A stretch of DNA of 64,000 nt from a virus (IMGVR_UViG_3300028833_000004), one strand, 5' to 3'. Counted from the first letter of the stretch, positions 9,098-51,065 are shown. The notes: generated by a model not told the origin, from the letters alone. A program made the numbers and translations.

Positions 9098-9116
9098 CTG
9101 ATAATCAATTAATTAG

Positions 9117-9189
9117 TTGCCCTGAATGGATTCGAACCATTTCCCCAGCTTTTAGAGAGCCATCAACTAACCATTATTATGACAGGGCA
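9117..9189 (-). tRNA. suppressor tRNA, anticodon CUA (reads UAG)
   Basis: 73 nt. Acceptor TGCCCTG/CAGGGCA. Anticodon stem TGGCT/AGCTG with loop CT-CTA-AA. T-arm AATGG-TTCGAAT-CCATT. GG in D-loop. D-stem weak. Confidence 0.75.
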
Positions 9190-9212: not shown

Positions 9213-9800
9213 TTAAAATTTAGCTTTCAAGATATTATCATGAAGTTCAAACTCAACATTGTGCATTTTAAGCAGTTCTAGTATAACTGCTGAGAGAAGC
9301 TCAGAATCAGAGATTTCTACTGGTTTATTGAGTTCCAACTCCTTTAAAACATCTTCCACTGAACGCCCCTCCTTAGGAGATTCCTTCTGAGGACAGTATT
9401 CTTTTGGGCATTCTTTAACCTCTTCAGTATCTAGAGCATCAAGAAATGCGTATATAAGTTTCTCAATATCTTTTGCTTCCTTATCTACCTTATTAGGATA
9501 TTCTTCCGTCTGGTGTTCTGTACAAGTAATTTCTTTAAGAGTTTTTGTTAAAAACTCCTTTGCCGGTTCGACATCATTCCAAATAGGATCAACCTTATCA
9601 TCTAAAAAATAACAGGTTAATAACTGCACTGCAGCTTTAAAGTTTTCCAAATCTTTCTCAGTTTTTCCGATAGCTTGTAAGAAGGCCCCAACACCATGAT
9701 TGAAAATAAATTCCTTCTCCTCATCTGAGAACTCGCACATTAGTTCATTTTCAAGAGTTTCAATTTGATTTAATTTAGCAACTGCTTCACAAAATTCCAT
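9213..9800 (-). CDS. acidic hypothetical protein (195 aa)
   Basis: Intact track ORF with no TAG. A hairpin AACCGC-ctaa-GCGGTT at 9193-9208 follows the stop. Confidence 0.65.
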   Translation of the reverse strand: MEFCEAVAKLNQIETLENELMCEFSDEEKEFIFNHGVGAFLQAIGKTEKDLENFKAAVQLLTCYFLDDKVDPIWNDVEPAKEFLTKTLKEITCTEHQTEEYPNKVDKEAKDIEKLIYAFLDALDTEEVKECPKEYCPQKESPKEGRSVEDVLKELELNKPVEISDSELLSAVILELLKMHNVEFELHDNILKAKF

Positions 9801-10012: not shown

Positions 10013-10474
10013 TTAATCTTTAAATTTCATCTTCATCTTACTGTAGTTATTAAAATTAATAATAAGATTAGCCCTACAATGTTCGCACATAAACTATTTA
10101 GCAACTGAAAACATTTCTTTGCCTATCTCTCCCTATAAATATTGAAAATCTTCACTATACGGATCAATTTTATAATACTCTGCAATATGTATTGCAGCAT
10201 GTCCTTTTTCATGATCATAAGTATTGACAAACTCCTAGGTAGAATCTGTTAATCCAATCACTATAAATGTAACATGCTTTTCTGCATCTGTATAAGTAAA
10301 TCCAGTATTTAACTCGTAATTTCTAAGCATACTCTCTACCCGATTAAATGTTTTTTCCGGGCAATCGATACTACTTAATTCATCTAATATCTCATCTGTA
10401 TAATAAGTAGTTACAGCATAGAAAATTTTAATAAGCCAATCATATTCTTCTAAATATATAACCTAAACTATCAT
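10013..10474 (-). CDS. hypothetical protein with HExxH motif (153 aa), TAG-recoded
   Basis: ATG at 10474 overlaps the upstream TGA. TAA at 10013. 4 in-frame TAG. Contains the sequence YDHEKGHAAIHI. Confidence 0.6.
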
Positions 10475-10878
10475 AACATATCTGACCATATTATTGGAGT
10501 TCCAGACGCTATACAATCAGCATAATACCTTGTAAAAGGCATCCCATCAGGAGCATCTGGATCATCACAATAATCTTTTATAAATTTTGCTAAATGGACA
10601 TCATCAGAGATAGATGATCCAAGAAAATCTGCTTTAGCCATATTTGCTACATAGATATAATCATAACCCTGTGAATTAGTTAACTTTATATTATACCTCT
10701 CCAGAAGCTAATCTACATCTTCTTTTGTATATGGCTTAATAAATTCCTTCCTACCATTTATATCTTTATACATTTTGGAGCAGGCCCATTCGCACATCTT
10801 TTTACTAAAATGCCACCCATAGAATTCCAGATACTGCTCCATATCCTATGGGAAGGCATTTCTTATATCTAACCTCAT
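10471..10878 (-). CDS. hypothetical protein (135 aa), TAG-recoded
   Basis: ATG at 10878 overlaps the upstream TGA. TGA at 10471. 2 in-frame TAG. Confidence 0.6.
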
Positions 10879-29860: not shown

Positions 29861-30135
29861 AACGTGCAAAGTTAATTATTATTCAAATAATATAAAATAT
29901 GGATCGATATTTTTTATAAAAATAAAATTAATAAGAATTCTTTATTATATTATACATAATATATAATATATAAGGTATTGATTTGAATTTTATTATGGAC
30001 TCAGTTAAATATTACTAATAATATCCCAGCTCTGTTTTTACTTTGCTAAATAAGTAGTACTTTTGTGCATTATAGGTAATGAATAGAAGTTTTACTTAAA
30101 GTCCTTCGAGCTTGTCGAAAAATATCCTATAATAG

Positions 30136-30165
30136 AAAACCCGGTTTATGCCGGGTTTTTCTTTT
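30136..30165. terminator. bidirectional terminator hairpin
   Basis: 9-bp stem AAAACCCGG/CCGGGTTTT at 30136-30144/30151-30159, with A/T runs on both sides. Abuts the stop at 30165. Confidence 0.65.
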
Positions 30166-30929
30166 TATACTTTATTACGACGATGCACGTGGAAGTGCGG
30201 ACCAGTAGTAATTCCAGGAATGGGATTATCTTTCTCATTTTTAATATAAATGCCCTTATCTCTCATATATTGTTGTATCTCTGGATCATTATCAATAATC
30301 TATTGAGCGAGTTCATAATCATTATCGATAGGGGTAAAATCAACGGCATTACCTTGATAGTGTGTTGAATTTTTTACATGCCCAGACTAAGCAAATCCCT
30401 CAGTAACTCTAACTCCAATCCCCTTACTAGTTAATAACTTTAAGAAATCGATAACATCATTGTGTACATTATCTAATGTTATTCCTTTTTTAAATATTAA
30501 CTCCCCTGGTTCTATATCCCTGGATTTAATATTTGTAGTCCTAATATAATCTCTTAATTTTAAATCAGGATTAAATTTAGACTTATTATCAAGATTTTTA
30601 TCAAGATTGGCTGAAATCTCTTTATATCTTTCAAAAGCTTGAAATCTCTAATTGAACCGATCTGGAAAGAGATCAGAGTAATCCTTGTATTCTGGCTGAG
30701 ATGTATTTGGCAAATATGTAGAGTTATAAAACTCTAAACCTTCTGCTCCTTTTTTAACCCATTTACGTGCGTTCTAAGCAAATGTAGCCTTCTTTCTTAT
30801 AGAGGCTAGTGGAGAATTTTTTCCCTTTCTAATACATTCTTCTGTAACTTTCCCACCACAGTAATCTGTGAAGGAACCTCGTTTTGAGGGTTTTATATGA
30901 ATCCCACCTTGTTTAAATATATTGATCAT
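30165..30929 (-). CDS. LAS-family zinc peptidase (peptidase M15-like cell-wall hydrolase), TAG-recoded
   Basis: ATG at 30929, TAA at 30165, 4 in-frame TAG. Contains STHYQGNAVDF (H-x6-D) and PHFHV (HxH). Confidence 0.65.
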
Positions 30930-30999
30930 AACTAAAAATTTTTTACAAAATTAAAAATTTTTTTAAAAAAATAAAAGTCAAAAATAGGCCCCCCGGGGT

Positions 31000-31600
31000 T
31001 TTTAAATGAGGGGGTGTTTAGGTGCAGAAGTTGGGTGTAGATTGGAAGTTTTTGTGAGTTGTGGGAGCGGGAGGACACCTAGGCAGCATGGCCCCCCGCA
31101 AAGCGTATGGGAAAACAATACCCAGCAGGCCTCAGGCCCTGCCGGGTATAATTTTCCCATAGACACAATTTCGCGGAGGAGCGTGATCGCCTTTCCTGGA
31201 AATGGCTGTGTTGCACCAATAGCAGCATGGCTCCGCGGCCTCACGAAATTGTGTCGACATCCCGACAGGTGACCTGGCGTGCTAACCGACTGGGATGTAA
31301 AACAGCACTGCATCTTCGGATGTACCAGGACGGGGCGGTTGGAGACAACCAGACGAAACCGTGACGGAAGTAGTCTAGTAGAATCATGCAATCGGAGATG
31401 GTATCAAAGATTAAGCACTAATTCACAATAGATGTGGAAAGTCTGAATCCCTCTTTAAAGTGTAAGGAGATGACCGTTGATAAAATGCTTTCAACAAGGT
31501 AAGACAAGTACTGCTATAATGAATTCAAACGGGCAATCTTAACTGCCCCAAAGCTCTCTGAGTTCTGGAATCTTAGTAGGAGAGTTATAATTAATAAAGA
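31000..31600 (+). ncRNA. large structured non-coding RNA candidate
   Basis: Nested helices 31106-31115/31152-31161 and 31162-31178/31231-31255. UUCG hairpin at 31310-31323. GAGA-loop hairpin at 31337-31350. Only overlapping low-quality ORFs on both strands. Confidence 0.4.
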
Positions 31601-31608
31601 TACTTGGT

Positions 31609-32019
31609 ATGAAGACATATCAAGAAAATGTTAAAGCATTAATTAGTAAACTTAATGCCTCATTTGGCTTTAAGTTTTACTTAGAAGAGATGGCCAATTT
31701 TGGCCGTCCCTTCACAATTCTCCGTGAGGGGACTGGATACTGTTTAGATATACAGTATTCAGAATCTGGGTTTGGAACAACCGACCTGGGCCTTTTTGGG
31801 CCCTCGCCAAAGGTTCCAAAACCAACAGACCAATTGCCGGCCATTGCGATAGTGACCGAAACGTGGGACGATTGGTACCCACAAATTAAAGACACCAATG
31901 TGGAATTCTGTCAAAGAATTCCAATACCGTTTCCGCAATCCCACACCAAAGAGGTGTGGCATACGTGCGGCTGTGCGCATACAATACACACCCACACCAG
32001 GGTAATTGTGGAGTGCTAG
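31609..32019 (+). CDS. hypothetical protein (136 aa; C-terminal third doubtful)
   Basis: Track ORF. The N-terminal 100 aa look protein-like. Ends at TAG, then TAA two codons later. Confidence 0.45.
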   Translation: MKTYQENVKALISKLNASFGFKFYLEEMANFGRPFTILREGTGYCLDIQYSESGFGTTDLGLFGPSPKVPKPTDQLPAIAIVTETWDDWYPQIKDTNVEFCQRIPIPFPQSHTKEVWHTCGCAHTIHTHTRVIVEC

Positions 32020-32063
32020 CCCTAAGGCCCATCTATGGAGCAGGACACAGTTCGATTCTGTGT

Positions 32064-32351
32064 ATGGGCCCTATGCCTATGAAACAAGATGGAGTCCCTG
32101 CTGGATGCATGCGATTTAACGTCGCCTTGTATCAAGCAAGACTCGAATCCTTGGAGAGTTTCTTAGGCTCTAATCCGTATGCCGGGGAATACGAACTGGC
32201 CTTATGCTGGGGAGTATCTCTGTCCGCGGCAATAGCCACCATGCATAAAATAATGGTTGGGATTAGAGCCGGGATACTTCAATCAAAATTCCCAATAAAT
32301 GGGAAGAAGATTGGAGTAAAAGGAAACTATTATGTCGTATATAAGGCATAA
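32064..32351 (+). CDS. small hypothetical protein, possible HTH (about 95 aa)
   Basis: In-frame ATGs at 32064 and 32079 within track ORF 31956..32351. LESLES motif shared with ORF 32471. Confidence 0.45.
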   Translation: MGPMPMKQDGVPAGCMRFNVALYQARLESLESFLGSNPYAGEYELALCWGVSLSAAIATMHKIMVGIRAGILQSKFPINGKKIGVKGNYYVVYKA

Positions 32352-32407
32352 CTCCTGCAGAGGGATGCGTATTCTGCATTACTCATAACGCATAACGATA
32401 GATCTTA

Positions 32408-32453
32408 GCTATTACAAAACACCTCCTTGTAATAGCCGGACAAGTATAGGAGG
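32408..32453 (+). promoter_or_regulatory. leader hairpin whose loop (CCTCC) is complementary to the downstream AGGAGG
   Basis: Perfect 10-bp stem 32408-32417/32427-32436. Loop aacaCCTCC. AGGAGG at 32448-32453, 17 nt before ATG 32471. Confidence 0.35.
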
Positions 32454-32470
32454 TATAAATTCGACAGACT

Positions 32471-32731
32471 ATGAATATGTATGTCGACATGGCTGTAGAG
32501 CCTCACGGCCCTACGTCTGAGAATGACATCGGGATTGCCATTCTACAGGCGTTAGAATCAAGATTGGAGAGTCCTAATGCTTTCTAGGCATCTCCAATCA
32601 AGTACTGTCTGTACGCAAATTCTGATGAGGACATAGCCTATTTGAGATCTTGGATTTGTAGTAATCTTAGATCTACAAATGGCAAATCTGTCCTATCAGA
32701 ATTTGACTACGGTCAGTAGTAGGGCTCCTGA
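32471..32731 (+). CDS. small hypothetical protein (86 aa if 3 TAG are read; 38 aa in the standard code)
   Basis: ATG at 32471. TAG at 32585, 32717 and 32720. TGA at 32729. ALESRLES motif paralogous to ORF 32064. Confidence 0.35.
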
Positions 32732-33180
32732 GTAAGACTCCGAGTGTAATGAGCTCGGGAACAGAAATCATCCCTGTATTGATATTGGTTTATCATACAG
32801 GCCTAAAGTTGGCCGTACATGGACACCACTATGTGTAGGGCCTAAATTAAAGAGCATCATCTCTCTAAACTGTCTAGCGGCTTGACCACATCCTTTCGGT
32901 ACTGGCGGTGAAAATCCAAACCGGGCTAGCAAGCAGCTCATCTTGTAAAACCGAGCCACCTAAGCATTCATATATGTGAGCTTTCGGCAGCAGCATGTAT
33001 GAAAGACGGGCATCCTCAATATGATGTAAAACTATTGACATCAGATAAGATGTAAAAATCCCCACTACCGGGGTGACATGGTACTCGGATTGTTAATTGT
33101 CTGGCCGAGCGGACTAGAGCAGTTCTTGACCCACGGGCTGTCGACGATCCACATTTTATGTGGATATTTTGGGTATTCAT

Positions 33181-33849
33181 ATGGCAACAAAGAATATTAT
33201 TGCCGAAGTAATTAATGCGAGCAAAGATGCTCGCCAATTTAGTGAGGAAGAGCTTCAAAAGAAGCTTGCCTCTCTAAATGGGCGAGATGGCTCGCCCCTC
33301 AAAGCCGAAGAGGAGCTTTGGCTCCTCCCGGTGCTCCTTCCAAGCTGGAAGTGGAAGGGCATTGAGGGTGAATACCCTGCACTTCCAGCCATCAACCAGA
33401 ACGGACACCTGGTCGTAATAGGTCTTGGAAGCCTCGCTGGAGGTTCTGGGTACCTAGAGGATCCAGGCGAAGGAACCTGGGAAATTTCGGAGACCGGATG
33501 GTGGTATCTAAAACCGTCTGAGGTCCCCGAAGGTGGTAGCAGGGCCACCAAAGTCTGGGGGTTGTCGAGGAGTCTTAAAGACTCATTCAACGACAACCTC
33601 GAGCTCAGAGGGGTCGTATCCCTCAAAGTAGAGGAGGACGGCTATTGTTACGGGCCGAGGCTCGTAAAGGCCGGGAGTCCCGACGAGGGACGAGAGAGGG
33701 CAAGCCTGCGCTTTAAGCGCAACACCCATTTCTGGGAAGGCAAGGCCCAGCCAATAACCGCCATTCCGAGCAAACTTAAAAAGTTTGCAGAGAAGCTGGG
33801 TTTACCGATGGAATGGCTAAAACCATTCCCAGCTGACTTCTACTGCTGA
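33181..33849 (+). CDS. hypothetical protein (222 aa), starts MATKN
   Basis: Track ORF 33160..33849 trimmed to the ATG. Followed by a strong terminator. Confidence 0.65.
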   Translation: MATKNIIAEVINASKDARQFSEEELQKKLASLNGRDGSPLKAEEELWLLPVLLPSWKWKGIEGEYPALPAINQNGHLVVIGLGSLAGGSGYLEDPGEGTWEISETGWWYLKPSEVPEGGSRATKVWGLSRSLKDSFNDNLELRGVVSLKVEEDGYCYGPRLVKAGSPDEGRERASLRFKRNTHFWEGKAQPITAIPSKLKKFAEKLGLPMEWLKPFPADFYC

Positions 33850-33850
33850 A

Positions 33851-33892
33851 ATAAAGGATCCTAGAGAAATCTAGGATCCTTTATTTTTTTTG
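33851..33892 (+). terminator. rho-independent terminator
   Basis: 14-bp perfect stem 33851-33864/33871-33884, then T8. Confidence 0.85.
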
Positions 33893-33970
33893 GCGACTCA
33901 TCATGGCCCCAGGTACTTTATAGCGCATAAAGCGTATTATTATTTTTTTTTAATTTAATATTTTTATTGT

Positions 33971-34639
33971 ATGGCAACGAAAAATTCGTATCTGGGTGAA
34001 AAATTCAACCCAGCAGATGAGAGCGATCGTGCTCTCAAAGACATGAAGGCACTCGAATCAGTTAATTTTGAGCGCCAAGCTCCATTAACTGAAGGTGCAA
34101 CTTATATCCTCCTACCGCAGGAAAATACAGCGGCTGTATATACTATCCCAGGAGTTGGTGATAGAGTTTCTCGCCGATTCTGGGCAGTTGAGCTTAACCG
34201 AAAGAATGAGCCTGTATCTATACGTAGTATAGGCTATTCATCGATAGCCAAAATGGGATATCAAGAAAAGACTTCAGCTCAACCTGCTGCACCAGAGGTT
34301 CCTGCATATCAGGATAAAGAAGGAAAATGGCACCCGAAACGTGGGTTAAGTTATGTGTTCTCATGCGAGGACCACAACTTCATTAAGGCAAACCCAGAGA
34401 CAATGCTTATGGAGATAAAGACTCCTACGGCATTGAAAGTGATGCGTAGAGCCGAAGTGTGGGTTGCATCCTTTAAGGATCAAGCATTAGTAGTAAAGGA
34501 CGGGATGATTGTTCCTGAAGTAGATGACCGATTCGTGTTCTTCAAAACCCTCGTAGCCCCAACTGAAGATATAGTTGAGGCTTGCAAAAAGGTCCTTGAA
34601 AATGAAGACTCAATTCAAGACTGCCTTTACCTGTTGTAA
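33971..34639 (+). CDS. hypothetical protein (222 aa), starts MATKN
   Basis: Track ORF. Same length and same first 5 residues as ORF 33181. Confidence 0.65.
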   Translation: MATKNSYLGEKFNPADESDRALKDMKALESVNFERQAPLTEGATYILLPQENTAAVYTIPGVGDRVSRRFWAVELNRKNEPVSIRSIGYSSIAKMGYQEKTSAQPAAPEVPAYQDKEGKWHPKRGLSYVFSCEDHNFIKANPETMLMEIKTPTALKVMRRAEVWVASFKDQALVVKDGMIVPEVDDRFVFFKTLVAPTEDIVEACKKVLENEDSIQDCLYLL

Positions 34640-34649
34640 GGGTAGTCTT

Positions 34650-35330
34650 GAAGGTAACACTTTTAAAACCGAAAATATTTCATATAAGTGTTATTTTATA
34701 AAGGGCCGACCGAAACCAGCAGACGGTGAAATAGTTTATGCCATGTTTCGCCGTCTGTCTGATGATTCGGTATTATTATTAATGTATCTCCCTGAATGGT
34801 CAGGAGTATAAATATTGTTGACCAGGAATTTGTCAGTAGTATTGAAACTGTCAATATGTAGTTATATAACATCCGCAGTATTATACATTGAAATATGTAT
34901 AATTGTCTAACAAGTTATGTATAATAAGTTGAAGGTGAAATCTAAATCCTAATCCTGTATAGTTAGACTACAGGTAGCATGTGCAATACCTATAGGTCAT
35001 GCTGTGTGTATATACCCTAAGAGTATCTAGTTCCTATGCTTATAAATGGAAATGGTAGGGGTATTATACACACAAAAAATTGTATTTTGTTAATCAAAAG
35101 TAGTTCAGTATTAAAATGAAGCATAGCGGCTGGTAACCGATTAGAGAGTACCAGACATAGAGTGAAGTCTGTGTCGAAACACATTGCTATAGGAAGACCT
35201 CTATAGATAAAAGGACAATGTGTATGCAATTTCCTTACTGCATAAATCCGAGACTGTTGGTAACAGTTGAACTTCACAGACAGCTATATAGGTGGACTAA
35301 CCATCCGCATCTAGACTATATAGCTTTTTT
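34650..35330 (+). ncRNA. hairpin-dense non-coding tract (one or more small RNAs?)
   Basis: Hairpins at 34954-34974 and 35004-35073 (14+ bp). Two ATGTATAAT boxes at about 34894 and 34917. Ends at terminator 35282-35330. Confidence 0.3.
35282..35330 (+). terminator. rho-independent terminator
   Basis: 9-bp stem AGCTATATA/TATATAGCT at 35282-35290/35317-35325, then T6. Confidence 0.6.
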
Positions 35331-35581
35331 ACTCATACCACTGTGATAGGTGGTATGGGTCCTATCTTGCTTTCTGATATACAATCAGTGGACAACTGCT
35401 TACTTTGAAGAATAAAGGTATGGCAAGAGCTGCACTCTTACTAGGTTCTTGAGTGATAACTTCAAAGCGCTGCGTTTATTAGAGCGTGGAAACAGAAATC
35501 TAATACTCTATTTCTTATTCAGAGTATAACTGAATATATCCCATCCGATGGTAGTGAAAACGATGTAAAACTAAACCTACC

Positions 35582-35607
35582 AATTTTTATTAACAATCTA
35601 AAAATTA
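35582..35607 (+). promoter_or_regulatory. conserved 26-nt early leader/promoter motif, copy 1
   Basis: aatttttattaacaatctaaaaatta lies 8 nt before ATG 35616. A near-identical copy sits at 35993-36018. Confidence 0.4.
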
Positions 35608-35615
35608 TTAGTAAT

Positions 35616-35984
35616 ATGCAAACAATTATGTATCAAGATGAAAAAGGATATAGATATATCCCAGTTTTCCAACCAGAGTTATCAAACTTGTTTGAATATA
35701 CTCGAAAAAAAGTATATCACATCTATACAGATAATCCTAAATGGTGTGGAAAAATATTACCAGAAGTAGTAAATGACACATCTATAGACGTAGGTACAAG
35801 AACTTATTGGCTGGAGAGAACTAATAACTCCATAGAGTGGGGACTAAAACCTTATCACAAGATATCATTTAAAGACATTGAAGAATTAGATGAAGATATA
35901 TGTGAAATATATAATTTTGAGTCAATTGGAATTGATTCAAGTGGAGTTTATGAATATGAAATTATCTATCCCTATGATGATTAG
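35616..35984 (+). CDS. hypothetical protein (122 aa)
   Basis: Track ORF. Terminates at TAG (35982-35984). Confidence 0.65.
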   Translation: MQTIMYQDEKGYRYIPVFQPELSNLFEYTRKKVYHIYTDNPKWCGKILPEVVNDTSIDVGTRTYWLERTNNSIEWGLKPYHKISFKDIEELDEDICEIYNFESIGIDSSGVYEYEIIYPYDD

Positions 35985-35992
35985 GGATAGAT

Positions 35993-36018
35993 AATTTTTA
36001 TTAACAATTTAAAAATTA
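35993..36018 (+). promoter_or_regulatory. conserved 26-nt early leader/promoter motif, copy 2
   Basis: aatttttattaacaatttaaaaatta lies 6 nt before ATG 36025. Confidence 0.4.
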
Positions 36019-36601: not shown

Positions 36602-36804
36602 TTAAATCATGATATATCCTTATATAATGAAACCCTTTTTGACTAACCATTTATGGAGGAATAAATGGAAGCAGGTAAGAAGACATAATAGAAATTGACC
36701 AATTTTCATTATCCTGAGGATCTGGGTACACACAGTATCCTGAAAGTCTTCAATTTGTTCCTAAGAGAGTGATATCTGTTAGGGGCACTAACCCTGCAAA
36801 GGGA

Positions 36805-36878
36805 TTTGTCGTATTAATTTGTGTTTTTCCTGTCGAGAGAGTCTTAATCCTTATTTGGTTGGAAGATGGTTTAGAAGA
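36805..36878 (+). repeat. 74-bp border repeat, order A(36 nt)-B(38 nt)
   Basis: A is tttgtcgtattaatttgtgtttttcctgtcgagaga. B is gtcttaatccttatttggttggaagatggtttagaaga. Both recur at 38350-38423 in swapped order. Confidence 0.9.
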
Positions 36879-37101: not shown

Positions 37102-37383
37102 ATGTATTTATTGAACGCATTTAGTTTGCAGATGGTGGAAACACCTGTATCTGTGAAATTTTCTGAAATAGAAGTGAACGAATTGCCCAAAGAATTAACA
37201 TCAGCCATCGGGCATGCGGATACTGCTGCTGTTCTTGGTGTTGAATGCAATCGCATAAATGTTAAATTAGCAAAAGGCGATACCGCATACGTTGCCCAAC
37301 TGATGGGCGGACGACTCCCCGAAGGGAGCACAACTCTCCCCGAAGGATTCCACTTCAAGTTTATTAAGGTGGACGTTGAATAA
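37102..37383 (+). CDS. acrIII-1: DUF1874 / AcrIII-1-like viral ring nuclease (anti-type III CRISPR), 93 aa
   Basis: LLNAFSLQM, SAIGHADTA, CNRINVKLAKGDTAYVAQ and GGRLPEGSTTLPEG match recalled hallmarks of SIRV1 gp29 / STIV B116 (NAFSINM, IGHxSTA, NR..GD, RLEEG). Confidence 0.7.
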   Translation: MYLLNAFSLQMVETPVSVKFSEIEVNELPKELTSAIGHADTAAVLGVECNRINVKLAKGDTAYVAQLMGGRLPEGSTTLPEGFHFKFIKVDVE

Positions 37384-37499: not shown

Positions 37500-37925
37500 A
37501 TGCCATTTAATGAGATGTGGGAAAGTTTAGTGAATATGTATAAGAGTACTGTAATGTTTCTCCGCTCAAATCGGAGAAATCGTCAAACAAAAATGACGAG
37601 GGGCGAATATTGTCCAGGAGAGCTTAAAAGTTCTCAGGCAATTCGCCAAATACTTTTTGATTTGAGAGGTAAGTTAATTCACTTTCCCAAGGATTCTTGG
37701 GTGTACTACATCTTAAGAGACCTTAAGATGGAAGAGTTCCGAAGAGGTGAAATAACCTACTGGAGATGTTGCCCGTACTTTGAGAGGGTGTACATTAACT
37801 TCAATGATGAAGCTAATTGGAACGAACTCCAAAGTACAGGTAAACTCTCCTGGGCTCGGGATGAGTATATATCATGGCTAAAAGCTGTGATGCCGCTCCG
37901 TTCTGAGATTATCCAGGTAGAGTGA
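37500..37925 (+). CDS. hypothetical protein (141 aa)
   Basis: Track ORF downstream of the acr-like gene. No recognised motif. Confidence 0.5.
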   Translation: MPFNEMWESLVNMYKSTVMFLRSNRRNRQTKMTRGEYCPGELKSSQAIRQILFDLRGKLIHFPKDSWVYYILRDLKMEEFRRGEITYWRCCPYFERVYINFNDEANWNELQSTGKLSWARDEYISWLKAVMPLRSEIIQVE

Positions 37926-38349: not shown

Positions 38350-38423
38350 GTCTTAATCCTTATTTGGTTGGAAGATGGTTTAGAAGATTTGTCGTATTAA
38401 TTTGTGTTTTACCTGTCGAGAGA
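38350..38423 (+). repeat. 74-bp border repeat, order B(38 nt)-A(36 nt)
   Basis: B is identical to 36841-36878. A differs from 36805-36840 at one base. Confidence 0.9.
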
Positions 38424-38697: not shown

Positions 38698-38727
38698 CTC
38701 TCCCCTGAAATATGGGGAGAGTTTTAT
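38698..38727. terminator. bidirectional terminator hairpin
   Basis: Stem CTCTCCCC/GGGGAGAG at 38698-38705/38714-38721. Abuts the stop of the minus-strand gene at 38724. Confidence 0.6.
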
Positions 38728-39476
38728 AAAACTATATCTTGAAAATTAACTTTATTTTCTTGTATATGTTTTACCAGTGCATTAATTGTTTTAGATTGAT
38801 GTTCTAACTTCTCTTGTAATTGTTTATATTTAAGAGATAAATCATCATGTTCTGATTGTAGAGATTCAATTTTAGAATCTGTTTCTAAGAATTTAAGAGC
38901 AATAGTATTGGCGAATTCATTAAAATTATATATTCGCTGGTAATTACATTCTAAATCAGTATGCCCATTATCTGGGATTTTTACCAATATATTTTTATCT
39001 TCTAAGGATTTCTCATATTTTTGTAAAGTTCTGGGATCTATATTGAGATAATTTGCTAATTGTTTATTACTATATGTAATAATTCCATTTTGTGCAACTG
39101 GATCTTTAAACATAAATTGTTGACTCATTACAATCATCGACTTATCTCTAGAGGATAAATTAGAATCATTTAGAAAATCAAAAGAAAATATTTCAAATTT
39201 ATTATAATCATTAAAGGTATATATAGAAGATGTGCCAGGTCTCTTAGTTATATTAATATATCCTGCATTTTCTAACCTTTTAAGTCCATTTAAAATAGTT
39301 TTTCTATCTAATTCGGAATCTTTTACAATAGTGGAAATTTGTGGATATGCCTGTTTTGTTTCTAAATTCATATATTTTTTAATACAGGCATAGATATAGG
39401 GATCATTTAGTGTTAATCCTTGCTTTTTTAAATCCATATTTGGGATTTGTACGTGCTGTTTTGATAATTCATTCAT
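38724..39476 (-). CDS. replication initiator-like protein with two winged-helix-type domains (250 aa)
   Basis: Track ORF. Contains YPQISTIVKDSELDRKTILNGLKRLENAGYI and NKQLANYLNIDPRTLQKYEKSLEDKNIL. Divergent from the adjacent iteron array. Confidence 0.55.
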   Translation of the reverse strand: MNELSKQHVQIPNMDLKKQGLTLNDPYIYACIKKYMNLETKQAYPQISTIVKDSELDRKTILNGLKRLENAGYINITKRPGTSSIYTFNDYNKFEIFSFDFLNDSNLSSRDKSMIVMSQQFMFKDPVAQNGIITYSNKQLANYLNIDPRTLQKYEKSLEDKNILVKIPDNGHTDLECNYQRIYNFNEFANTIALKFLETDSKIESLQSEHDDLSLKYKQLQEKLEHQSKTINALVKHIQENKVNFQDIVL

Positions 39477-41199: not shown

Positions 41200-42174
41200 A
41201 TGAAAATATTAACAGAAAGAGATGTGAATAAGCATGGCTGGGGTATAGTATCGGTAATTACATCCGACATGCTAGAGAAATATGGGTATACACAAATTGG
41301 AGATTATGCTTTTTGGGGCGATGATCTTGAATCAATCATAATACCTAATAGTATAACAAAAATTGGAATTGGCGCGTTCAGAAATTGTCCTAAACTGACT
41401 TCAGTAACAATCCCCAATAGTGTAACAATTATTGACTCTAGGGCTTTTTTAAATTGTAGTAATTTAACCTCAATCAAGATTCCAAATAGTGTAACAGGTA
41501 TTGGTATACATGCTTTTAATGGTTGTTCTAATTTAACTTCAATAGTAGTAGAAGCAGATAATCCAAATTATGATAGTAGAAACAATTGCAATGCTATAAT
41601 AGAGACTGCTACAAACACTCTTATCGCTGGTTGTAAAAATACAATTATTCCCAATAGTGTAACAAATATTGGAAGTTTTGCCTTCTATAGCTGTGATGAT
41701 TTGACATCTATAATAATTCCCGATAATGTAATTAGCATTGGAGATGATGCTTTCTGCAAAACAGGTTTGAAATCCATATCTATTCCAAATAGTGTTACAA
41801 GCATTGGATATTGTGCTTTTAAGGATTGTAAAATTAACATACCTAAAAAATATGATAGTCTGGGTAGACTAATTGCATATAAAGGATTTGATTCTAAGAT
41901 GCAATGTTATGATCATTTTCAATACATTGAAGGACATACTTATAAAACTTCTGAAGCTATATTATGTGAATGCGGATTCCACGCTTGTACTAATCCCTTA
42001 GATATATTTTCTTATTATTTCGGAAGAATAAATAAAAATGTATATATACATGAGGTATATCTTGATGATGTAAGTACTGAAAAGGGTACGGATAGTAAGG
42101 TTGTATCTAAGAAAATAACTATTGGTCGAAGATTAACCATTGAAGACATAAACAATATAATACAAGAAAAATAA
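41200..42174 (+). CDS. BspA-type leucine-rich-repeat protein with conserved Cys/His C-terminal domain, paralogue 1
   Basis: Repeats IPNSVTxIGxxAFxxCxxLTSI. C-terminus [46 protein letters not shown]. Confidence 0.75.
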   Translation: MKILTERDVNKHGWGIVSVITSDMLEKYGYTQIGDYAFWGDDLESIIIPNSITKIGIGAFRNCPKLTSVTIPNSVTIIDSRAFLNCSNLTSIKIPNSVTGIGIHAFNGCSNLTSIVVEADNPNYDSRNNCNAIIETATNTLIAGCKNTIIPNSVTNIGSFAFYSCDDLTSIIIPDNVISIGDDAFCKTGLKSISIPNSVTSIGYCAFKDCKINIPKKYDSLGRLIAYKGFDSKMQCYDHFQYIEGHTYKTSEAILCECGFHACTNPLDIFSYYFGRINKNVYIHEVYLDDVSTEKGTDSKVVSKKITIGRRLTIEDINNIIQEK

Positions 42175-42221
42175 AAAAACATTTGTATAATTCAAAAACA
42201 AAGTAAAAAAAATAAACAAAC

Positions 42222-43070
42222 ATGAAAACATTAACACAAAATAGTGTAATTGAACACGGATGGGATAAATTATCAGTTATAACGGCTGATATGATAGAAA
42301 AATATAGGTATACACAAATTGGGAAAAATGCTTTTAATCATTGCCATAGCCTTACCTCAATTACTATACCTAATAGTGTAACAACCATTGGACTTTATGC
42401 TTTCTATGATTGCACTAATCTTACCTTAATAACCATTCCAAATAGTGTAACAAAAATTGGGGATTATGCTTTCTATAATTGCCGTAGTCTTACCTCAATA
42501 ACAATACCAAATAGTGTAATAGCCATTGGGTGTTGGACTTTTTATAGATGTAATAATCTTACCTCAATTACTATTCCAAATAGTGTAACATACATTGGAA
42601 ATGGTGCTTTCTATCATTGCAGTAATCTTACCTCTATAATCATACCTAATAGTGTAACAACCATTGAAGATGATGCTTTTGCTGATTGTGGAATAAACCT
42701 GCCTAAAAAATACGATAATCAAGGTAGGTTAATTGCATATAAGGGATTTGATAAACACATGCAATGTCGTGGTTTTCAATACATTGAGGGTGAAACCTAC
42801 GAAACAGATAAAGCTAAGTTATGTGTATGTGGTTTTCATGCTTGTACAAATCCTCTTGACATATTTAACTATTATGCTGGTGAAATAAATAATAAAATGT
42901 TTATTCACGAAGTGTATCTTGAAGATGTAAGTGGTGAGGAAAAAAATGATAGTAAAGTAGTTAGTAAGAAAATAACCATAGGTCGAAGATTAACAATTGA
43001 AGATATTAATAATATATTACAAGATGAAAGAGTTAACACGAGACAATGTAACCAAACATGGATGGAATGA
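42222..43070 (+). CDS. BspA-type LRR protein, paralogue 2
   Basis: Same repeat and C-terminal domain as paralogue 1. Confidence 0.75.
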
Positions 43071-43845
43071 ACTATCGGTTATTACAGCCGATATGATAAA
43101 GGAATATGGCTATACTTCTATTGGAGAATACGCTTTCTATAATTGTAAAAATCTAGTTTCAATAACCTTACCAAATAGTATAACGAATATTAGAAGAAGT
43201 GCTTTTTTTAATTGTTATAAATTAGCCTTTATAACAATTCCTAATAGTGTAATCAGTATTGGAAATTATGCTTTCACATTTTGTCACAGCTTGACTTCGG
43301 TTATTATTCCTAATAGCGTAATAAATATTGGAAATAATGCATTCACTGGTTGTAATAGTCTAACCTCAGTCACAATTGGTAATGGTACAACAGGCATTGG
43401 AGATTGTACTTTTGCTTTTTGCAATAATCTTATTTCTATTATCATTCCTAATAGTATAAAAATTATTGGATTTCGTGCTTTTGGAGGTTGTAAAATAAAG
43501 TTGCCTAAAAAATATGATGCCCAAGGTAGATTAATTGCTTACAAAGGATTTAATAAAAACATGCAGTGTCGTAATTTTCAATATGCGGAAGGACAAACTT
43601 ATGAGACATACAAGGCGGAATTGTGTAAATGTGGCTTCCATGCCTGTACTAATCCTCTTGATGTATTTACTTATTATGCAGGTGAAATAGGTAAAGATAT
43701 GTTTATCCATGAAGTATATCTTGAAGAAGTGAATGATGAAGAAGATAGTGATAGCAAGATAGTTGCTAATAAAATAACTATTGGTAAACGTTTAACAATC
43801 AAAGATATTAATAAAATTATACAAAATGAAAATATTAACAGATGA
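43024..43845 (+). CDS. BspA-type LRR protein, paralogue 3
   Basis: Track ORF 42997..43845 trimmed to the ATG giving [14 protein letters not shown], by homology with the paralogue N-termini. Confidence 0.75.
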
Positions 43846-44571
43846 TGAGGTAATTAAAAATGAATGGAATAAAAAGTCCATTATCACCTCCCATATGATA
43901 GAAAAATATGGATACACACAAATTGGAGATCATGCTTTTTTATTTGCCACAATCTTACCTCTATAACTCTTCCAGATAATATAACTAGTATTGAAGCTTA
44001 TGCTTTCTATGGTTGTAACAGGCTGACTTCGGTCACAATTGGCAATAGAGTAACAAGTATTGGAAAGTGTGCATTCGGAAATTGTAAAAAGCTTGCATCT
44101 ATAAATATACCAAATAGTATAATAAGTATTGGAGATTATGCTTTCCATGATTGCTATGGGCTTACTTCGATTGTTATATCAAATAATGTAACAAATATTG
44201 GATGTGGTGCGTTTAGAACAGGTAAATTAATAATTCCTTTAAAAAAATATGATAATCTAGGCAGGTTAATTGCTTATAAAGGTTTTCGTAGAGATATGAC
44301 TTGTCTTGGTTTTCAATACGAAGAGGGAAAGACCTTCGAAACAAATAGAGCAAAGTTATGCGAGTGTGGATTTCATGCTTGTATCAACCCATTGGATGTT
44401 TTCAATTACTATTATGGGAAAATAAATGAAGATATAGTTATTCATGAAGTATATCTTGAGGGCGTATCAGAAGATTTAAGCCCATTTTTATATGATAGTA
44501 AGGTCGTTGCAAAGAAAATCACTATTGGCAAAAGATTGTCTATAGAAGACATTAATAAAATTATACAATAA
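43826..44571 (+). pseudogene. BspA-type LRR protein, paralogue 4, interrupted by a -1 frame change at a T6 run
   Basis: ATG at 43826 ([14 protein letters not shown]). The frame breaks at GCT TTT TTA (43934-43942). The -1 frame from 43942 restores ICHNLTSITLPDN and joins track ORF 44296..44571. Confidence 0.65.
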
Positions 44572-44581
44572 AATAAAAATT

Positions 44582-44980
44582 ATGTGTTTACTAGATACTA
44601 AAAGAATAAGATTTACAATCTTCCCAAAAAAAGTATATAAGATCGTATATGTTGAGGATGGGTGTTATTATTCTCCTTACAGATGTATCGATGTTAAACT
44701 AATGCAGGTGCAATATCCATACTTTAAAAATGTAGAACCATCTGTATTACACGGTGAAACAGAACTTTATGAATTCGGAGATGGATTTGTATTTGGATAT
44801 ACTGATTTAATAGAAGCTATATATGCGAAACACAATCTTGAAAGACAACATCCAAGATTTGAATATGTAATAATAAAAGGTATAATACCTCCATTTACAA
44901 GATATGCTCGTGAAGACCGTTATCCTCTATCCGAAGTATGTGCTAGAAAAATGTTTTGGTATAAAGTGTTAGGAAGATAA
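44582..44980 (+). CDS. hypothetical protein (132 aa)
   Basis: Track ORF. Confidence 0.6.
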   Translation: MCLLDTKRIRFTIFPKKVYKIVYVEDGCYYSPYRCIDVKLMQVQYPYFKNVEPSVLHGETELYEFGDGFVFGYTDLIEAIYAKHNLERQHPRFEYVIIKGIIPPFTRYAREDRYPLSEVCARKMFWYKVLGR

Positions 44981-50055: not shown

Positions 50056-50358
50056 ATGACAGATTACACAGGAAAGAAAGTAATTGTCCGCTCGCACGGA
50101 GCGGGAGTGTTCTTCGGAACGTTGAAAGAATTTGATGCCGCCAACGGTATCGTAGAGTTAACAAACTGCCGCCGTGTGTGGTACTGGAGCGGTGCAACCT
50201 CGCTGTCCCAACTCGCTTGCGAGGGCGTTAAGAATGCCGGAGGCAGCAAGATAACGCAAGAGGTTGCGTCTATATGCGTTACACAAGTTTTGGAAATTAT
50301 TCCATGCACGGAAGAGGCTATTGAAAATCTAAATCGTGTGCCGGTATGGAAGATGTAA
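50056..50358 (+). CDS. hypothetical protein (100 aa) in a GC-richer insert
   Basis: Track ORF. Confidence 0.65.
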   Translation: MTDYTGKKVIVRSHGAGVFFGTLKEFDAANGIVELTNCRRVWYWSGATSLSQLACEGVKNAGGSKITQEVASICVTQVLEIIPCTEEAIENLNRVPVWKM

Positions 50359-51065
50359 TTAAACGCTTTTTAGCAGTAGAATATGGCTATGGTTATGGTT
50401 ATGGCTTTGGCTATGGCTATGGCTATGGCGATGGCGATGGCTCTGGCGATGGCTCTGGCTCTGGCTATAGCGATGGCGATGGCGATGGCTCTGGCGATGG
50501 CTCTGGCTTTGGCTATAGCGATGGCTATGGCTATGGTTATGGCTCTGGCTTTGGCTATGGCTCTGGCGATGGCGATGGCTCTGGCGATGGCGATGGCTCT
50601 GGCATAAAATCTTTTTGTGGGCAAAAAGTCTATATCATAGATAGCGTGCAAACTCTTATCGATAGTATACATGGCAATTATGCAAGAGGTGCGATACTCA
50701 AATCTGATTTGACTACCGAGTCTTGCTACATAGCTAAGGTAGGCAATTTCTTTGCTCACGGCACTACGCTCAAGCAGGCGTTTGCAGACGCACAAGAAAA
50801 GTACGACAGGAACAGATCTATAAAAGAACGCATTGCAGATTTCGTGCAGCAATACCCGACACTTGACACAAAGTGCAAGGGCGCAGACCTCTTCCGGTGG
50901 CACAATGTCCTAACGGGCTCGTGCCAATTAGGCAGAGAGCAGTTTTGCAACGAGCGTGGCATTAACCCCGATACCGTTACGATGACTGTAAGAGAGTTTA
51001 TAGAACTGACAAAAAACGCCTACGGCAGTAAGGCAATCCTACTACTGCGTGAAGCGTATAACTAA
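50346..51065 (+). CDS. protein with N-terminal (Gly-X)n repeat, X = Y/F/D/S, and a globular C-terminal domain (239 aa)
   Basis: Track ORF. About 75 residues of GYGYGYGFGYGYGYGDGDGSGDGSGSG... followed by non-repetitive sequence. Confidence 0.7.
   Translation: MEDVIKRFLAVEYGYGYGYGFGYGYGYGDGDGSGDGSGSGYSDGDGDGSGDGSGFGYSDGYGYGYGSGFGYGSGDGDGSGDGDGSGIKSFCGQKVYIIDSVQTLIDSIHGNYARGAILKSDLTTESCYIAKVGNFFAHGTTLKQAFADAQEKYDRNRSIKERIADFVQQYPTLDTKCKGADLFRWHNVLTGSCQLGREQFCNERGINPDTVTMTVREFIELTKNAYGSKAILLLREAYN
50383..50607 (+). repeat. hexanucleotide-periodic tandem repeat (ggc-tat / ggc-gat / ggc-tct / ggc-ttt units)
   Basis: Seen directly. It generates open frames in several phases on both strands. Confidence 0.9.

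What the first reader, a model, noticed from the sequence alone, without database searches (positions are those of the whole stretch)
30986..35600. A 4.6-kb GC-richer island sits between the late and early arms
Composition changes abruptly at the CCCCGGGG palindrome (30991-30998) and returns to AT-rich at about 35600. The island carries its own strong terminators at 33851-33892 and 35282-35330, and perfect TATAAT boxes. It has long ORF-free structured tracts and ORFs I cannot place in any family. One small ORF (32471..32731) only reaches a plausible length if three TAG are read through, which suggests the island is adapted to the phage code rather than being freshly captured DNA. I found no integrase, transposase or flanking direct repeats.
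Basis: seen in the sequence. Interest (0 to 1): 0.7.

Follow-up and report, generated by a model that had tools for sequence, protein, structure and literature searches.

The report
Conserved GC-rich structured-RNA phage module
The GC-rich island is real, but it is not captured foreign DNA: it is a conserved module of a little-known group of crAss-like gut and rumen phages, made of unusually strongly folding, mostly non-coding sequence plus two related orphan proteins, and relatives carry self-cleaving ribozymes at the same place.

Summary
GC jumps from about 0.31 to 0.40-0.57 at the GGCCCCCCGGGG motif (30987-30998). It decays after about 34.7 kb, and strong predicted folding continues to about 34.9 kb (whole-tract fold to about 35.6 kb).

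The "captured island" reading does not hold. The same module sits in eight other divergent lineages of AT-rich phage contigs, and it is GC-rich in seven of them. The order is always: start motif, conserved 5' RNA element, variable ORF-poor tract, protein A, terminator, motif gCGACTCAGCATGG, protein B. A and B share only 25-45% identity across lineages. They are distant paralogs of each other, with no match in Pfam, PHROGs, PDB or 50,697 GenBank phages.

The window's non-coding tracts fold far better than shuffles (z -2.9 to -8.1).

Relatives carry Pistol and twister-like ribozymes and a DUF2693-FD RNA inside their islands. The window has no Rfam hit.

Best reading: a vertically inherited, probably early, transcription module that makes long, stable, processed structured RNAs plus two proteins. 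The nearest precedent is the abundant early lncRNAs of crAss-like phage phi14:2. Expression, promoter identity and function are inferred, not shown.

The parts
30987..31003 (+). Island-start motif GGCCCCCCGGGG plus a T-run. GC content jumps here.
   Evidence: Read directly from the sequence. RCCCCCCYGG(G) followed by a T-rich run precedes the 5' element in L012, L014, L015/L016, L020, L023 (two copies) and L024.
31075..31098 (+). Promoter-like motif, copy 1: CACCTAGGCAGCATGGCCCCCC. The family consensus is TACCTACTCAGCATGGCCCC.
   Evidence: The motif sits at the same place in 8 lineages. The promoter role is inferred.
31097..31161 (+). Short hairpin (31097-31105), then a 24-bp-arm hairpin (31106-31161) that contains the conserved GGGAAAA block.
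   Evidence: Inverted repeat I1. The fold gives z = -4.9. A hairpin with different stem sequences occupies this position in L012, L014, L015, L020, L023 and L024.
31005..31440 (+). 5' structured domain. It includes a second CAGCATGG copy (31220-31234) and the conserved GUUGGAGACAAC hairpin (31338-31349).
   Evidence: z = -2.9. The motif copies were found. The GGAGACAAC block is shared with L014, L015, L020 and L023.
31441..33180 (+). Strongly folding, ORF-poor tract. It holds the non-conserved ORFs 31609-32019, 31956-32351 and 32471-32731, and a conserved block at 32359-32394.
   Evidence: z = -6.9 and -5.8. The ORFs have no homologs in related islands and no family hits. The block is 86-90% identical to L015 6110-6146 and L020 7676-7704.
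33181..33849 (+). Protein A: 222 aa, new family, GC3 0.565, no in-frame TAG.
   Evidence: An exhaustive HMMER search finds only 11 distant relatives. Syntenic homologs occur in all related loci. The AF2 model has pLDDT 77.6 and no fold match.
33849..33892 (+). Intrinsic terminator after gene A.
   Evidence: A perfect 17-nt inverted repeat plus T8. A terminator sits at the same position in relatives.
33892..33910 (+). Promoter-like motif, copy 3: GGCGACTCATCATGGCCCC, placed directly after the terminator and upstream of gene B.
   Evidence: gCGACTCAKCATGG follows the T-run in the window, L012, L014, L015, L017, L019, L020 and L024.
33971..34639 (+). Protein B: 222 aa, a distant paralog of A, GC3 0.381, no in-frame TAG.
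   Evidence: B has 24-36% identity (global) to its syntenic homologs. hhalign of the A family against the B family gives probability 94.7% and E = 5.6e-8. No Pfam, PHROGs or PDB hit.
34640..35615 (+). Structured 3' non-coding tract. It contains a terminator-like hairpin plus U6 (35285-35329) and a hairpin at 35331-35360.
   Evidence: z = -8.1. 35331-35360 is 30/30 identical to L015 10846-10875.

Best explanation
WHAT IT IS. The island is a vertically inherited module of a clade of AT-rich crAss-like phages. It lies at the head of the rightward (early, standard-code) arm.

TRANSCRIPTION UNITS. It is most likely transcribed rightward as two units.
- Unit 1 starts near the conserved motif at about 31.09 kb. 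It runs through about 2.1 kb of strongly folding, largely non-coding RNA and gene A. It stops at the terminator at 33849-33892.
- Unit 2 starts at the same motif re-occurring at 33892-33910. It runs through gene B and a structured trailer of about 0.7 kb, to the terminator-like hairpin at 35285-35329.

WHY IT IS GC-RICH. The GC-richness, including at synonymous sites, is maintained by selection. That selection may favour stable RNA structure, translation that does not depend on the phage's own tRNAs and suppressor, or both. It is not a sign of recent foreign origin.

RNA PROCESSING. In relatives the long leader is cut by self-cleaving ribozymes. The primary product is therefore a set of defined, stable structured RNAs.

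PROTEINS. A and B are two paralogous beta-rich orphan proteins. They probably act with these RNAs or in host takeover.

SHOWN: conservation of the architecture, the motifs, the terminators, the excess folding, the A/B paralogy, and the ribozymes in relatives.

INFERRED: transcription itself, early timing, the promoter role of the motif, RNA stability, and the function of A and B.
For: THE COMPOSITIONAL UNIT IS REAL.

HOMOLOGOUS MODULES. Modules with identical order and orientation occur in L012/L017, L014, L015/L016, L019, L020-22, L023 and L024/25. They are GC-rich in L012, L014, L015/L016, L020-22, L023, L024 and more weakly L017. L019 shows no clear contrast. A and B identities are 25-45%.

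CODON COMPOSITION. GC3 of A is 0.35-0.67 and of B 0.30-0.52. Other phage genes have about 0.17-0.26.

CONSERVED RNA-LEVEL FEATURES.
- The 5' element.
- A hairpin at a fixed position with different stem sequences in 7 lineages.
- The block GCAYACGC pairs with a downstream complement that changes in step with it. The number of shuffles reaching the observed score was 0/300 in L014, 0/300 in L023, 1/300 in L024 and 18/300 in L020.
- The GUUGGAGACAAC hairpin.

EXCESS FOLDING. z runs from -2.9 to -8.1, against about -0.6 and -1.8 in control coding sequence.

STRAND. The terminators, positive GC skew and genes are all on the + strand.

MOTIF PLACEMENT. ACTCAGCATGG occurs only inside the islands, and always directly after the A terminator.

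RIBOZYMES INSIDE RELATED ISLANDS.
- Pistol in L015: 59.1 bits against a gathering score of 34.5.
- Pistol in L019: 37.3 bits, also above 34.5.
- Twister-like in L014: 50.2 bits, E = 1e-9, below the gathering score of 67.2.
- Twister-like in L019: 48 bits, also below 67.2.
- DUF2693-FD RNA in L014: 48.3 bits against 44.5.

PRECEDENT. In crAss-like phage phi14:2, two long intergenic regions at the start of the early arm give abundant, persistent lncRNAs of unknown function (bioRxiv 10.1101/2020.03.07.982082).
Against: - There are no expression data of any kind.
- The window's own island has no Rfam hit, even at E <= 10.
- The covariation evidence is hand-curated from about 7 lineages. An automatic RNAalifold run on a MAFFT alignment found little.
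- The long-range helix is not seen in the window, L012 or L019.
- The promoter assignment rests only on position and conservation. It matches no known promoter class that I could test.
- Excess folding also covers the A and B coding regions. It could therefore reflect a DNA-level property.
- ORFs 31609-32019 and 31956-32351 cannot be excluded as lineage-specific genes.
- phi14:2 shows no sequence or protein homology to this module and is not GC-rich there.
Confidence: 0.6

Rival explanations
1. The unit is a horizontally acquired or mobile island, such as a moron, satellite or selfish element, inserted between the two arms.
For: - There is a sharp compositional discontinuity.
- The unit has its own terminators and promoter-like motifs.
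- Its internal content is highly variable between lineages, with 0.8-4 kb upstream of A.
- It is absent from 50,697 GenBank phages and from IMG/VR.
- MT835470, the best of the two GenBank phages with a PDDEXK homolog (33% identity), shows no such island in the 33 kb examined.
- Self-cleaving ribozymes are often linked to mobile RNAs.
Against: - There is no integrase, transposase, or flanking direct or inverted repeats.
- Position, orientation and gene order are the same in 9 lineages, next to HTH_36 genes in 6 of the 8 relatives.
- Protein divergence is deep, yet the GC-rich state is kept in most of them. Foreign DNA would be expected to drift toward the AT-rich phage composition.
- No homolog was found in 185,579 prokaryotic genomes by pattern-limited scans.
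- MT835470 is too distant and not syntenic, so its lack of the island says little.
Confidence: 0.13
2. The element works mainly at the DNA level, as a replication origin or entry region. Its hairpin-rich, GC-rich DNA would be recognised by initiator or polymerase proteins. One example would be structured single-stranded promoters for an injected virion RNA polymerase, as in phage N4.
For: - The cumulative GC-skew minimum of the window lies at about 30-31 kb, at the island start.
- In relatives the island starts just after an HTH_36/DnaD_N-like gene and an AT-rich spacer with iteron-like repeats. A RepL-like gene lies nearby in L017.
- The - strand of 31005-31440 folds even better than the + strand, with z = -4.25.
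- phi14:2 virion RNAP was assayed in vitro on denatured phi14:2 DNA, and M13 DNA in single- and double-stranded forms is listed among its templates.
Against: - The skew minimum also coincides with the switch in transcription direction, which explains it on its own.
- Strand-specific features all sit on the + strand: intrinsic terminators, ribozymes and two conserved genes.
- The compensatory changes fit RNA helices.
- In the window the HTH_36 gene lies 3 kb downstream, not adjacent.
- The two roles could coexist.
Confidence: 0.15
3. The region is ordinary protein-coding sequence. The ORFs at 31609-32019, 31956-32351 and 32471-32731 would be fast-evolving orphan genes, and the apparent RNA structure would be incidental.
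For: ORFs of 131-136 aa exist, and one has a plausible start context. Other islands also have lineage-specific small ORFs.
Against: - No homolog exists in any related island or library.
- GC is nearly flat across codon positions, unlike in A and B.
- z = -7.8 to -8.1 across exactly these ORFs.
- 31005-31608 and 32732-33180 have no credible ORF at all.
Confidence: 0.08

Closest known systems
Early long non-coding RNAs of crAss-like phage phi14:2 (the g004-g005 and g005-g006 intergenic regions; Drobysheva et al., bioRxiv 10.1101/2020.03.07.982082)
   Same: Both are kilobase-scale ORF-free tracts at the start of the rightward early arm of a crAss-like phage, interleaved with genes for small proteins of unknown function. 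[quoted passage not shown]
   Different: There is no detectable sequence or protein homology. The phi14:2 region is not GC-rich, at 0.20-0.32. Expression is unproven for the window.
Ribozyme-rich phage-associated neighbourhoods of bacterial twister, hammerhead, pistol and hatchet ribozymes (Weinberg et al. 2015, as reviewed in PMC6765202 and PMC5737381)
   Same: Different self-cleaving ribozyme classes (Pistol, and twister-like hits below the family threshold) occupy interchangeable positions in homologous islands, next to the same genes. The literature describes exactly this unexplained pattern.
   Different: The window itself has no recognisable ribozyme. I could not check the gene classes listed in that literature against A, B or HTH_36, because the paper is not held.
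Large phage-associated structured ncRNAs (GOLLD, ROOL)
   Same: All are large, structured, phage-borne RNAs of unknown function.
   Different: There is no match to any Rfam model. The context differs: here the RNA is coupled to two conserved proteins, and no tRNA gene lies within about 3.6 kb of the window island.
Genomic islands and morons in phage genomes
   Same: Both show atypical composition and autonomous transcription signals.
   Different: There is no mobility gene, no repeats and no evidence of recent transfer. The unit is conserved in place across deep divergence.

Membership tests
Horizontally acquired genomic island / mobile element | Atypical base composition relative to the host genome | tested here: met
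   GC is 0.40-0.57 against about 0.31. GC3 is 0.38-0.57 against about 0.21.
Horizontally acquired genomic island / mobile element | Integrase, transposase or recombinase, and flanking direct or inverted repeats | tested here: not met
   No such ORF was found. No flanking repeats beyond chance AT-rich matches.
Horizontally acquired genomic island / mobile element | Presence/absence polymorphism among close relatives, or different insertion sites | tested here: inconclusive
   All contigs of the same phage carry it identically. All 8 divergent lineages that encode A or B have the module in the same arrangement. No close relative without it was available. MT835470 lacks it but is not syntenic.
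Known Rfam RNA family (GOLLD, ROOL, ribozymes, group I/II introns and others) | Covariance-model score at or above the family's gathering threshold | tested here: not met
   The whole window at gathering thresholds gives only tRNAs. At E <= 10, 30500-36000 and 31000-33200 give only chance-level hits.
Self-cleaving-ribozyme-containing phage locus | Pistol, twister or hammerhead ribozyme within the unit | tested here: not met
   Not met in the window. Met in homologous islands: Pistol in L015/L016 at 59.1 bits and in L019 at 37.3 bits, against a gathering score of 34.5. Twister-P1-like hits in L014 (50.2 bits) and L019 (48 bits) fall below the gathering score of 67.2, with E about 1e-9 to 7e-8.
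phi14:2-type early phage lncRNA | Kilobase-scale ORF-free tract at the head of the early arm of a crAss-like phage | tested here: met
   ORF maps; crAss-like affinity of the flanking gene; phi14:2 layout.
phi14:2-type early phage lncRNA | Abundant early, persistent, rifampicin-resistant transcription | not testable with these tools
   This needs RNA-seq of infected cells or metatranscriptomes.
phi14:2-type early phage lncRNA | Sequence homology to the phi14:2 region or its neighbouring proteins | tested here: not met
   hhalign of the A and B profiles against phi14:2 g004 and g007 gives probability below 1%.
Conserved structured ncRNA (new family candidate) | Conserved sequence blocks in independent lineages | tested here: met
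   The 5' element is found in 8 lineages. The GGAGACAAC block is in 5. The blocks at 32359-32394 and 35331-35360 are also shared.
Conserved structured ncRNA (new family candidate) | Compensatory base-pair covariation | tested here: inconclusive
   A hairpin at a fixed site has 7 different stems. The long-range helix has matched changes in 4-5 lineages. However, RNAalifold on a MAFFT alignment found only 2 covarying pairs. No statistical covariation test on a structural alignment was done.
Conserved structured ncRNA (new family candidate) | Folding energy beyond composition-matched shuffles | tested here: met
   z runs from -2.9 to -8.1.
Rho-independent terminator | GC-containing hairpin followed by a U-run on the transcribed strand | tested here: met
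   33849-33892. The element at 35285-35329 is weaker and AU-rich.

The most novel reading that the evidence does not exclude
The island encodes a previously unrecognised phage ribonucleoprotein system. An injected or phage-specific RNA polymerase would recognise the conserved ACTCAGCATGG motif. It would make kilobase-long, GC-rich RNAs that are processed by ribozymes. These RNAs would assemble with the two paralogous orphan proteins A and B to take over the host early in infection. If true, this would give the first sequence-defined early promoter for a crAss-like phage. It would also give a concrete biological setting for the long-unexplained clustering of different self-cleaving ribozyme classes near the same phage genes.
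Probability: 0.15. Interest if true: 0.85.

Novelty: new variant of a known kind. Interest (0 to 1): 0.62.

Why it matters
Crassvirales are among the most abundant gut viruses. Their early transcription program and the role of the abundant early lncRNAs seen in phi14:2 are unknown.

This module offers three things:
- A conserved, alignable RNA-plus-protein unit.
- A candidate promoter motif.
- Ribozymes of different classes at interchangeable positions.

Two open questions become testable on a defined locus. What do early crAss lncRNAs do? Why do different self-cleaving ribozyme classes cluster near the same phage genes?

The module also shows that a sharp GC island in a phage can be an anciently maintained functional feature rather than foreign DNA.

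Tried and rejected
- RFAM. Searches of the window island at gathering thresholds and at E <= 10 gave nothing.
- FAMILY SCANS. Pfam, PHROGs and PDB-sequence scans of A, B and all small ORFs gave nothing.
- FOLD SEARCH. Foldseek of the A model (pLDDT 77.6) against PDB and BFVD gave no hit with E < 0.06. A few very weak hits (E > 0.5) were to OB-fold proteins such as SSB and Teb1.
- STRUCTURE OF B. Single-sequence AF2 of B is unusable at pLDDT 37.7.
- PROTEIN HOMOLOGS. The word-indexed search found A and B only as themselves. Only the exhaustive HMMER search found the A family.
- COLLECTION SCANS. IMG/VR, the GTDB genomes and GenBank phages gave no relatives. The metagenome scan gave one extra locus.
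- ENDOLYSIN HOMOLOGS. Contigs found through the neighbouring endolysin-like gene (30165-30929) were not syntenic.
- ALTERNATIVE STOP-CODON READINGS. Reading TAG or TGA through did not yield longer genes in the ORF-poor tracts.
- AUTOMATIC CONSENSUS FOLDING. RNAalifold on the MAFFT alignment of the 5' element was uninformative, because the hairpin registers differ. I did not build a covariance model.
- T7 RESEMBLANCE. A resemblance of GCGACTCAGCATGG to the T7-class promoter core was recalled from memory. I did not test it, and no RNA polymerase gene was looked for in the window.

Full report
1. OBSERVATION

The window is an AT-rich phage.
- The left arm is on the - strand. It encodes terminase-like, portal-like and other large late-type proteins (judged by eye, not tested) and is heavily TAG-recoded. 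One 570-aa ORF has 22 in-frame TAG codons. A tRNA with anticodon CUA lies at 9116-9189.
- The right arm is on the + strand and uses essentially the standard code.

The region between them is compositionally distinct.
- GC is 0.46, 0.44, 0.48 and 0.40 for the four 1-kb windows from 31001, against about 0.25-0.40 elsewhere.
- The rise is abrupt: 0.32 to 0.54 across position 31000. It occurs exactly at GGCCCCCCGGGG plus a T-run (30987-31003).
- GC decays after about 34.7 kb.

- A perfect 17-bp-stem terminator with T8 lies at 33849-33892.
- A hairpin plus U6 lies at 35285-35329.
- TATAAT hexamers are present, though promoter-like sites are fewer than in shuffles (11 against 20.9).
- ORFs of 136, 131, 222 and 222 aa have no family.
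- A TAG-interrupted ORF lies at 32471-32731.
- There are no mobility genes or flanking repeats.

2. THE STRUCTURED TRACTS ARE REAL AND EXTREME

MFE z-scores against dinucleotide-preserving shuffles, all on the + strand:

| Region | z-score |
|---|---|
| 31005-31440 | -2.9 |
| 31441-32351 | -6.9 |
| 32352-33180 | -5.8 |
| 34640-35615 | -8.1 |

A sliding 300-nt scan gives z of -4 to -8 for most windows between 31001 and 34900. This includes the two protein genes. Late-arm and early-arm coding controls average about -0.6 and -1.8. The island is therefore a block of exceptional folding potential, not just of higher GC.

3. WHICH ORFs ARE GENES

Two ORFs have relatives: protein A (33181-33849) and protein B (33971-34639).
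- A and B were singletons in the word-indexed 5.8-billion-protein search.
- An exhaustive HMMER scan found 11 distant relatives of A, at 28-41% identity over the matched stretches; nine are 209-251 aa long.
- Looking up where those relatives are encoded gave the key result, described in section 4.
- A and B are themselves distant paralogs. hhalign gives probability 94.7% and E = 5.6e-8 over the N-terminal half.
- Neither family matches Pfam, PHROGs or PDB sequences.
- An AF2 model of A is fairly confident (pLDDT 77.6, pTM 0.72; mostly beta). It has no significant Foldseek match in PDB or BFVD.

The other ORFs are not supported as genes. This applies to 31609-32019, 31956-32351 and 32471-32731.
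- They have no counterpart in any related island, even with TAG read through.
- Their GC is nearly flat over codon positions.
- They coincide with the most strongly folding windows, at z -7.5 to -8.1.

I therefore treat 31005-33180 as mostly non-coding. The TAG-readthrough ORF lies in a long nested hairpin (inverted repeats I3 and I16).

4. THE ISLAND IS A CONSERVED MODULE

Homologs of A are always followed by a homolog of B. This holds in L012/L017, L014, L015/L016, L019, L020-L022, L023 and L024/L025. B identities to the window are 24-36% (global alignment); the matched stretch reaches 42% in L014.

In most of the loci where flanks are available, the module stands out as a GC-rich block (0.40-0.59) in a 0.25-0.35 background. 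L019 is the exception and shows no clear contrast.

The order is constant:
1. An RCCCCCCYGG motif plus a T-rich run.
2. A 5' element: GAGAGGGGGAG..TACCTACTCAGCATGRCCCC, a hairpin, then GGGAAAAACCCAAAGCAYACGC.
3. A variable, mostly ORF-free tract of 0.4-4 kb.
4. Gene A.
5. An intrinsic terminator.
6. gCGACTCAGCATGG.
7. Gene B.
8. Often a small overlapping ORF.

These features were seen.

An HTH_36/DnaD_N-like gene on the opposite strand lies just upstream or downstream in L012, L014, L015, L017, L020/L021 and L023. In the window it lies at 38724-39476.

Synonymous-site GC is elevated in every lineage. GC3 is 0.35-0.67 for A and 0.30-0.52 for B. Neighbouring phage genes have 0.17-0.26.

Deep protein divergence with a maintained GC-rich state argues for long-term selection. 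It argues against recent capture.

The module was not found in the following collections:
- 50,697 GenBank phages.
- IMG/VR.
- 185,579 prokaryotic genomes, scanned with limited peptide patterns.

It appears restricted to a poorly sampled phage clade, seen so far only in metagenome assemblies (JGI, ENA, Logan).

5. RNA-LEVEL CONSERVATION

- Immediately after CATGRCCCC, every lineage has a hairpin closed by the conserved C-run and G-run. The inner stems differ: AUC/GAU, UAC/GUA, GC/GC, UGUCU/AGACG, UGCC/GGCA and GGC/GCC.
- The conserved block GCAYACGC pairs with a downstream segment whose sequence changes in step. Examples are GCAUACGCAC with GUGUGUAUGC, CCACACGCGG with CCGUGUGUGG, and GCACACGCACUU with AAGUGCGUGUGU. 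Independent MFE folds predict this helix in L014, L015 and L023. A complementarity test against shuffles gave 0/300, 0/300, 1/300 and 18/300 for L014, L023, L024 and L020. The helix is not seen in the window, L012 or L019. In the window, the GGGAAAA block sits instead in a 24-bp-arm hairpin.
- A GUUGGAGACAAC hairpin is shared by five lineages.
- Further short blocks are conserved. 32359-32394 matches L015 and L020. 35331-35360 is 30/30 identical to L015.
- Automatic RNAalifold on a MAFFT alignment was uninformative, because the hairpin registers differ. I therefore rate covariation as suggestive, not proven.

6. RIBOZYMES IN THE RELATIVES

Rfam scans of the related loci found these hits, all on the + strand.

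| Locus and position | Family | Bits | Gathering score | Note |
|---|---|---|---|---|
| L015 4980-5038 (same in L016) | Pistol | 59.1 | 34.5 | inside the island |
| L019 886-952 | Pistol | 37.3 | 34.5 | inside the island |
| L014 7707-7767 | twister-P1-like | 50.2 | 67.2 | E = 1e-9; the conserved UAA.GC.GCC...CCAAGCC...GAGG nucleotides are present; follows the GGAGACAAC hairpin |
| L019 6317-6366 | twister-P1-like | 48 | 67.2 | about 1 kb downstream of gene B, past the small ORF |
| L014 8834-8884 | DUF2693-FD RNA | 48.3 | 44.5 | in the A-B spacer |

The window's island has none.

Different ribozyme classes at interchangeable places near the same genes is the pattern reported for bacterial and phage twister, hammerhead and pistol ribozymes. 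The reason for that pattern is still unknown (PMC6765202, PMC5737381). This implies that the islands are transcribed as long + strand RNAs which, at least in those lineages, are cut into defined pieces.

7. THE PROMOTER-LIKE MOTIF

In the window, matches to the motif lie only in the island, with three copies on the + strand (31081, 31220 and 33896) and one weaker - strand match at 35007. In the relatives too, matches fall only within the island regions.

Its invariable placement 2-6 nt after the T-run of the A terminator, and 60-100 nt upstream of the B start codon, is what one expects of a promoter. So is its placement at the head of the 5' element.

It does not resemble the Bacteroidota -33/-7 consensus (from my own knowledge). 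No common motif was found for phi14:2 early promoters. The promoter role, and which polymerase would use it, are inference.

8. BEST EXPLANATION AND RIVALS

I conclude, with confidence about 0.6, that the island is a vertically inherited, probably early, two-unit transcription module. Its main products are long, stable, structured (and in relatives ribozyme-processed) RNAs, together with two paralogous orphan proteins.

The positional and conceptual precedent is the pair of abundant, persistent early lncRNAs of phi14:2. However, there is no homology, and phi14:2's region is not GC-rich.

The rivals are:
- A mobile or acquired island (0.13).
- A DNA-level origin or entry function (0.15). This is suggested by the GC-skew minimum at the island start and by neighbouring initiator-like genes and iterons. 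It may coexist with the RNA role.
- Ordinary orphan coding sequence (0.08).

9. NOVELTY

The components are new: the 5' RNA domain, the A/B protein family and the motif. They are absent from curated libraries and from annotated phages. The kind of thing has precedents: an early phage lncRNA region, and a ribozyme-associated phage locus. I therefore rate it a new variant of a known kind, with interest about 0.6. Expression data would be decisive.

Noticed in passing
window 36803-36878 and 38350-38423; L017 25-47 and 773-796: A 76-nt repeat occurs twice with its two 38-nt halves in swapped order: A-B at 36.8 kb and B-A at 38.4 kb. The copies flank two genes with elevated GC3 (37102-37383, STIV_B116-like, and 37500-37925). 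The B half, GTCTTAATCCTTRTTTGGTTGGAA, also occurs 2-3 times inside the island of relative L017. It is unexplained.
   Followed up: partly
window ~30000-31000: The cumulative GC-skew minimum of the whole 64-kb window coincides with the island start. This could mark a replication origin, or merely the switch in transcription direction.
   Followed up: no
L012 7340-7470; L014 6915-7035; L023 745-860: In relatives, the AT-rich spacer between the HTH_36/DnaD_N-like gene and the island start carries iteron-like direct repeats, for example TTTACCGAT. This is suggestive of an origin or operator.
   Followed up: no
window 9116-9189 and the - strand arm (<30929): A tRNA with anticodon CUA (called tRNA-Pyl by ARAGORN) lies in the late arm, and late-arm genes carry many in-frame TAG codons. 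Early-arm genes have almost none. This is a code split by expression class.
   Followed up: partly
window 30165-30929 (-): The gene next to the island has a roughly 55-aa N-terminal domain. That domain is conserved (50-85% identity) in many crAss-like phage proteins whose C-termini differ and sometimes carry lysozyme or peptidase Pfam domains (Phage_lysozyme2, Peptidase_M15_3, lysozyme). GenBank annotates it as 'putative transmembrane protein'. It looks like a modular endolysin.
   Followed up: partly
window 50336-50647: A second GC-rich spot (GC 0.48) consists of tandem 12/18-nt repeats inside ORF 50346-51065.
   Followed up: no
window 41200-44600: An array of 3-4 paralogous genes carrying LRR_5 and DUF7666 domains, with internal 69-nt repeats.
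   Followed up: no
window 35331-35360 vs L015 10846-10875: There is 30/30 nucleotide identity (hairpin CATACCAC/GTGGTATG) between two phages whose A and B proteins are only about 27-34% identical. This implies a strongly constrained small element just after the island's last terminator.
   Followed up: partly
L012 11384-11557, L017 2988-3188, L023 ~3677-3961, L014 ~10195-10539, L015 9517-9699, L020 ~9471-9698, L019 5297-5485: A small ORF of about 55-85 aa, overlapping or following the end of gene B, is conserved among relatives. It is not detectably conserved in the window, where the equivalent ORF is 34602-34811.
   Followed up: partly
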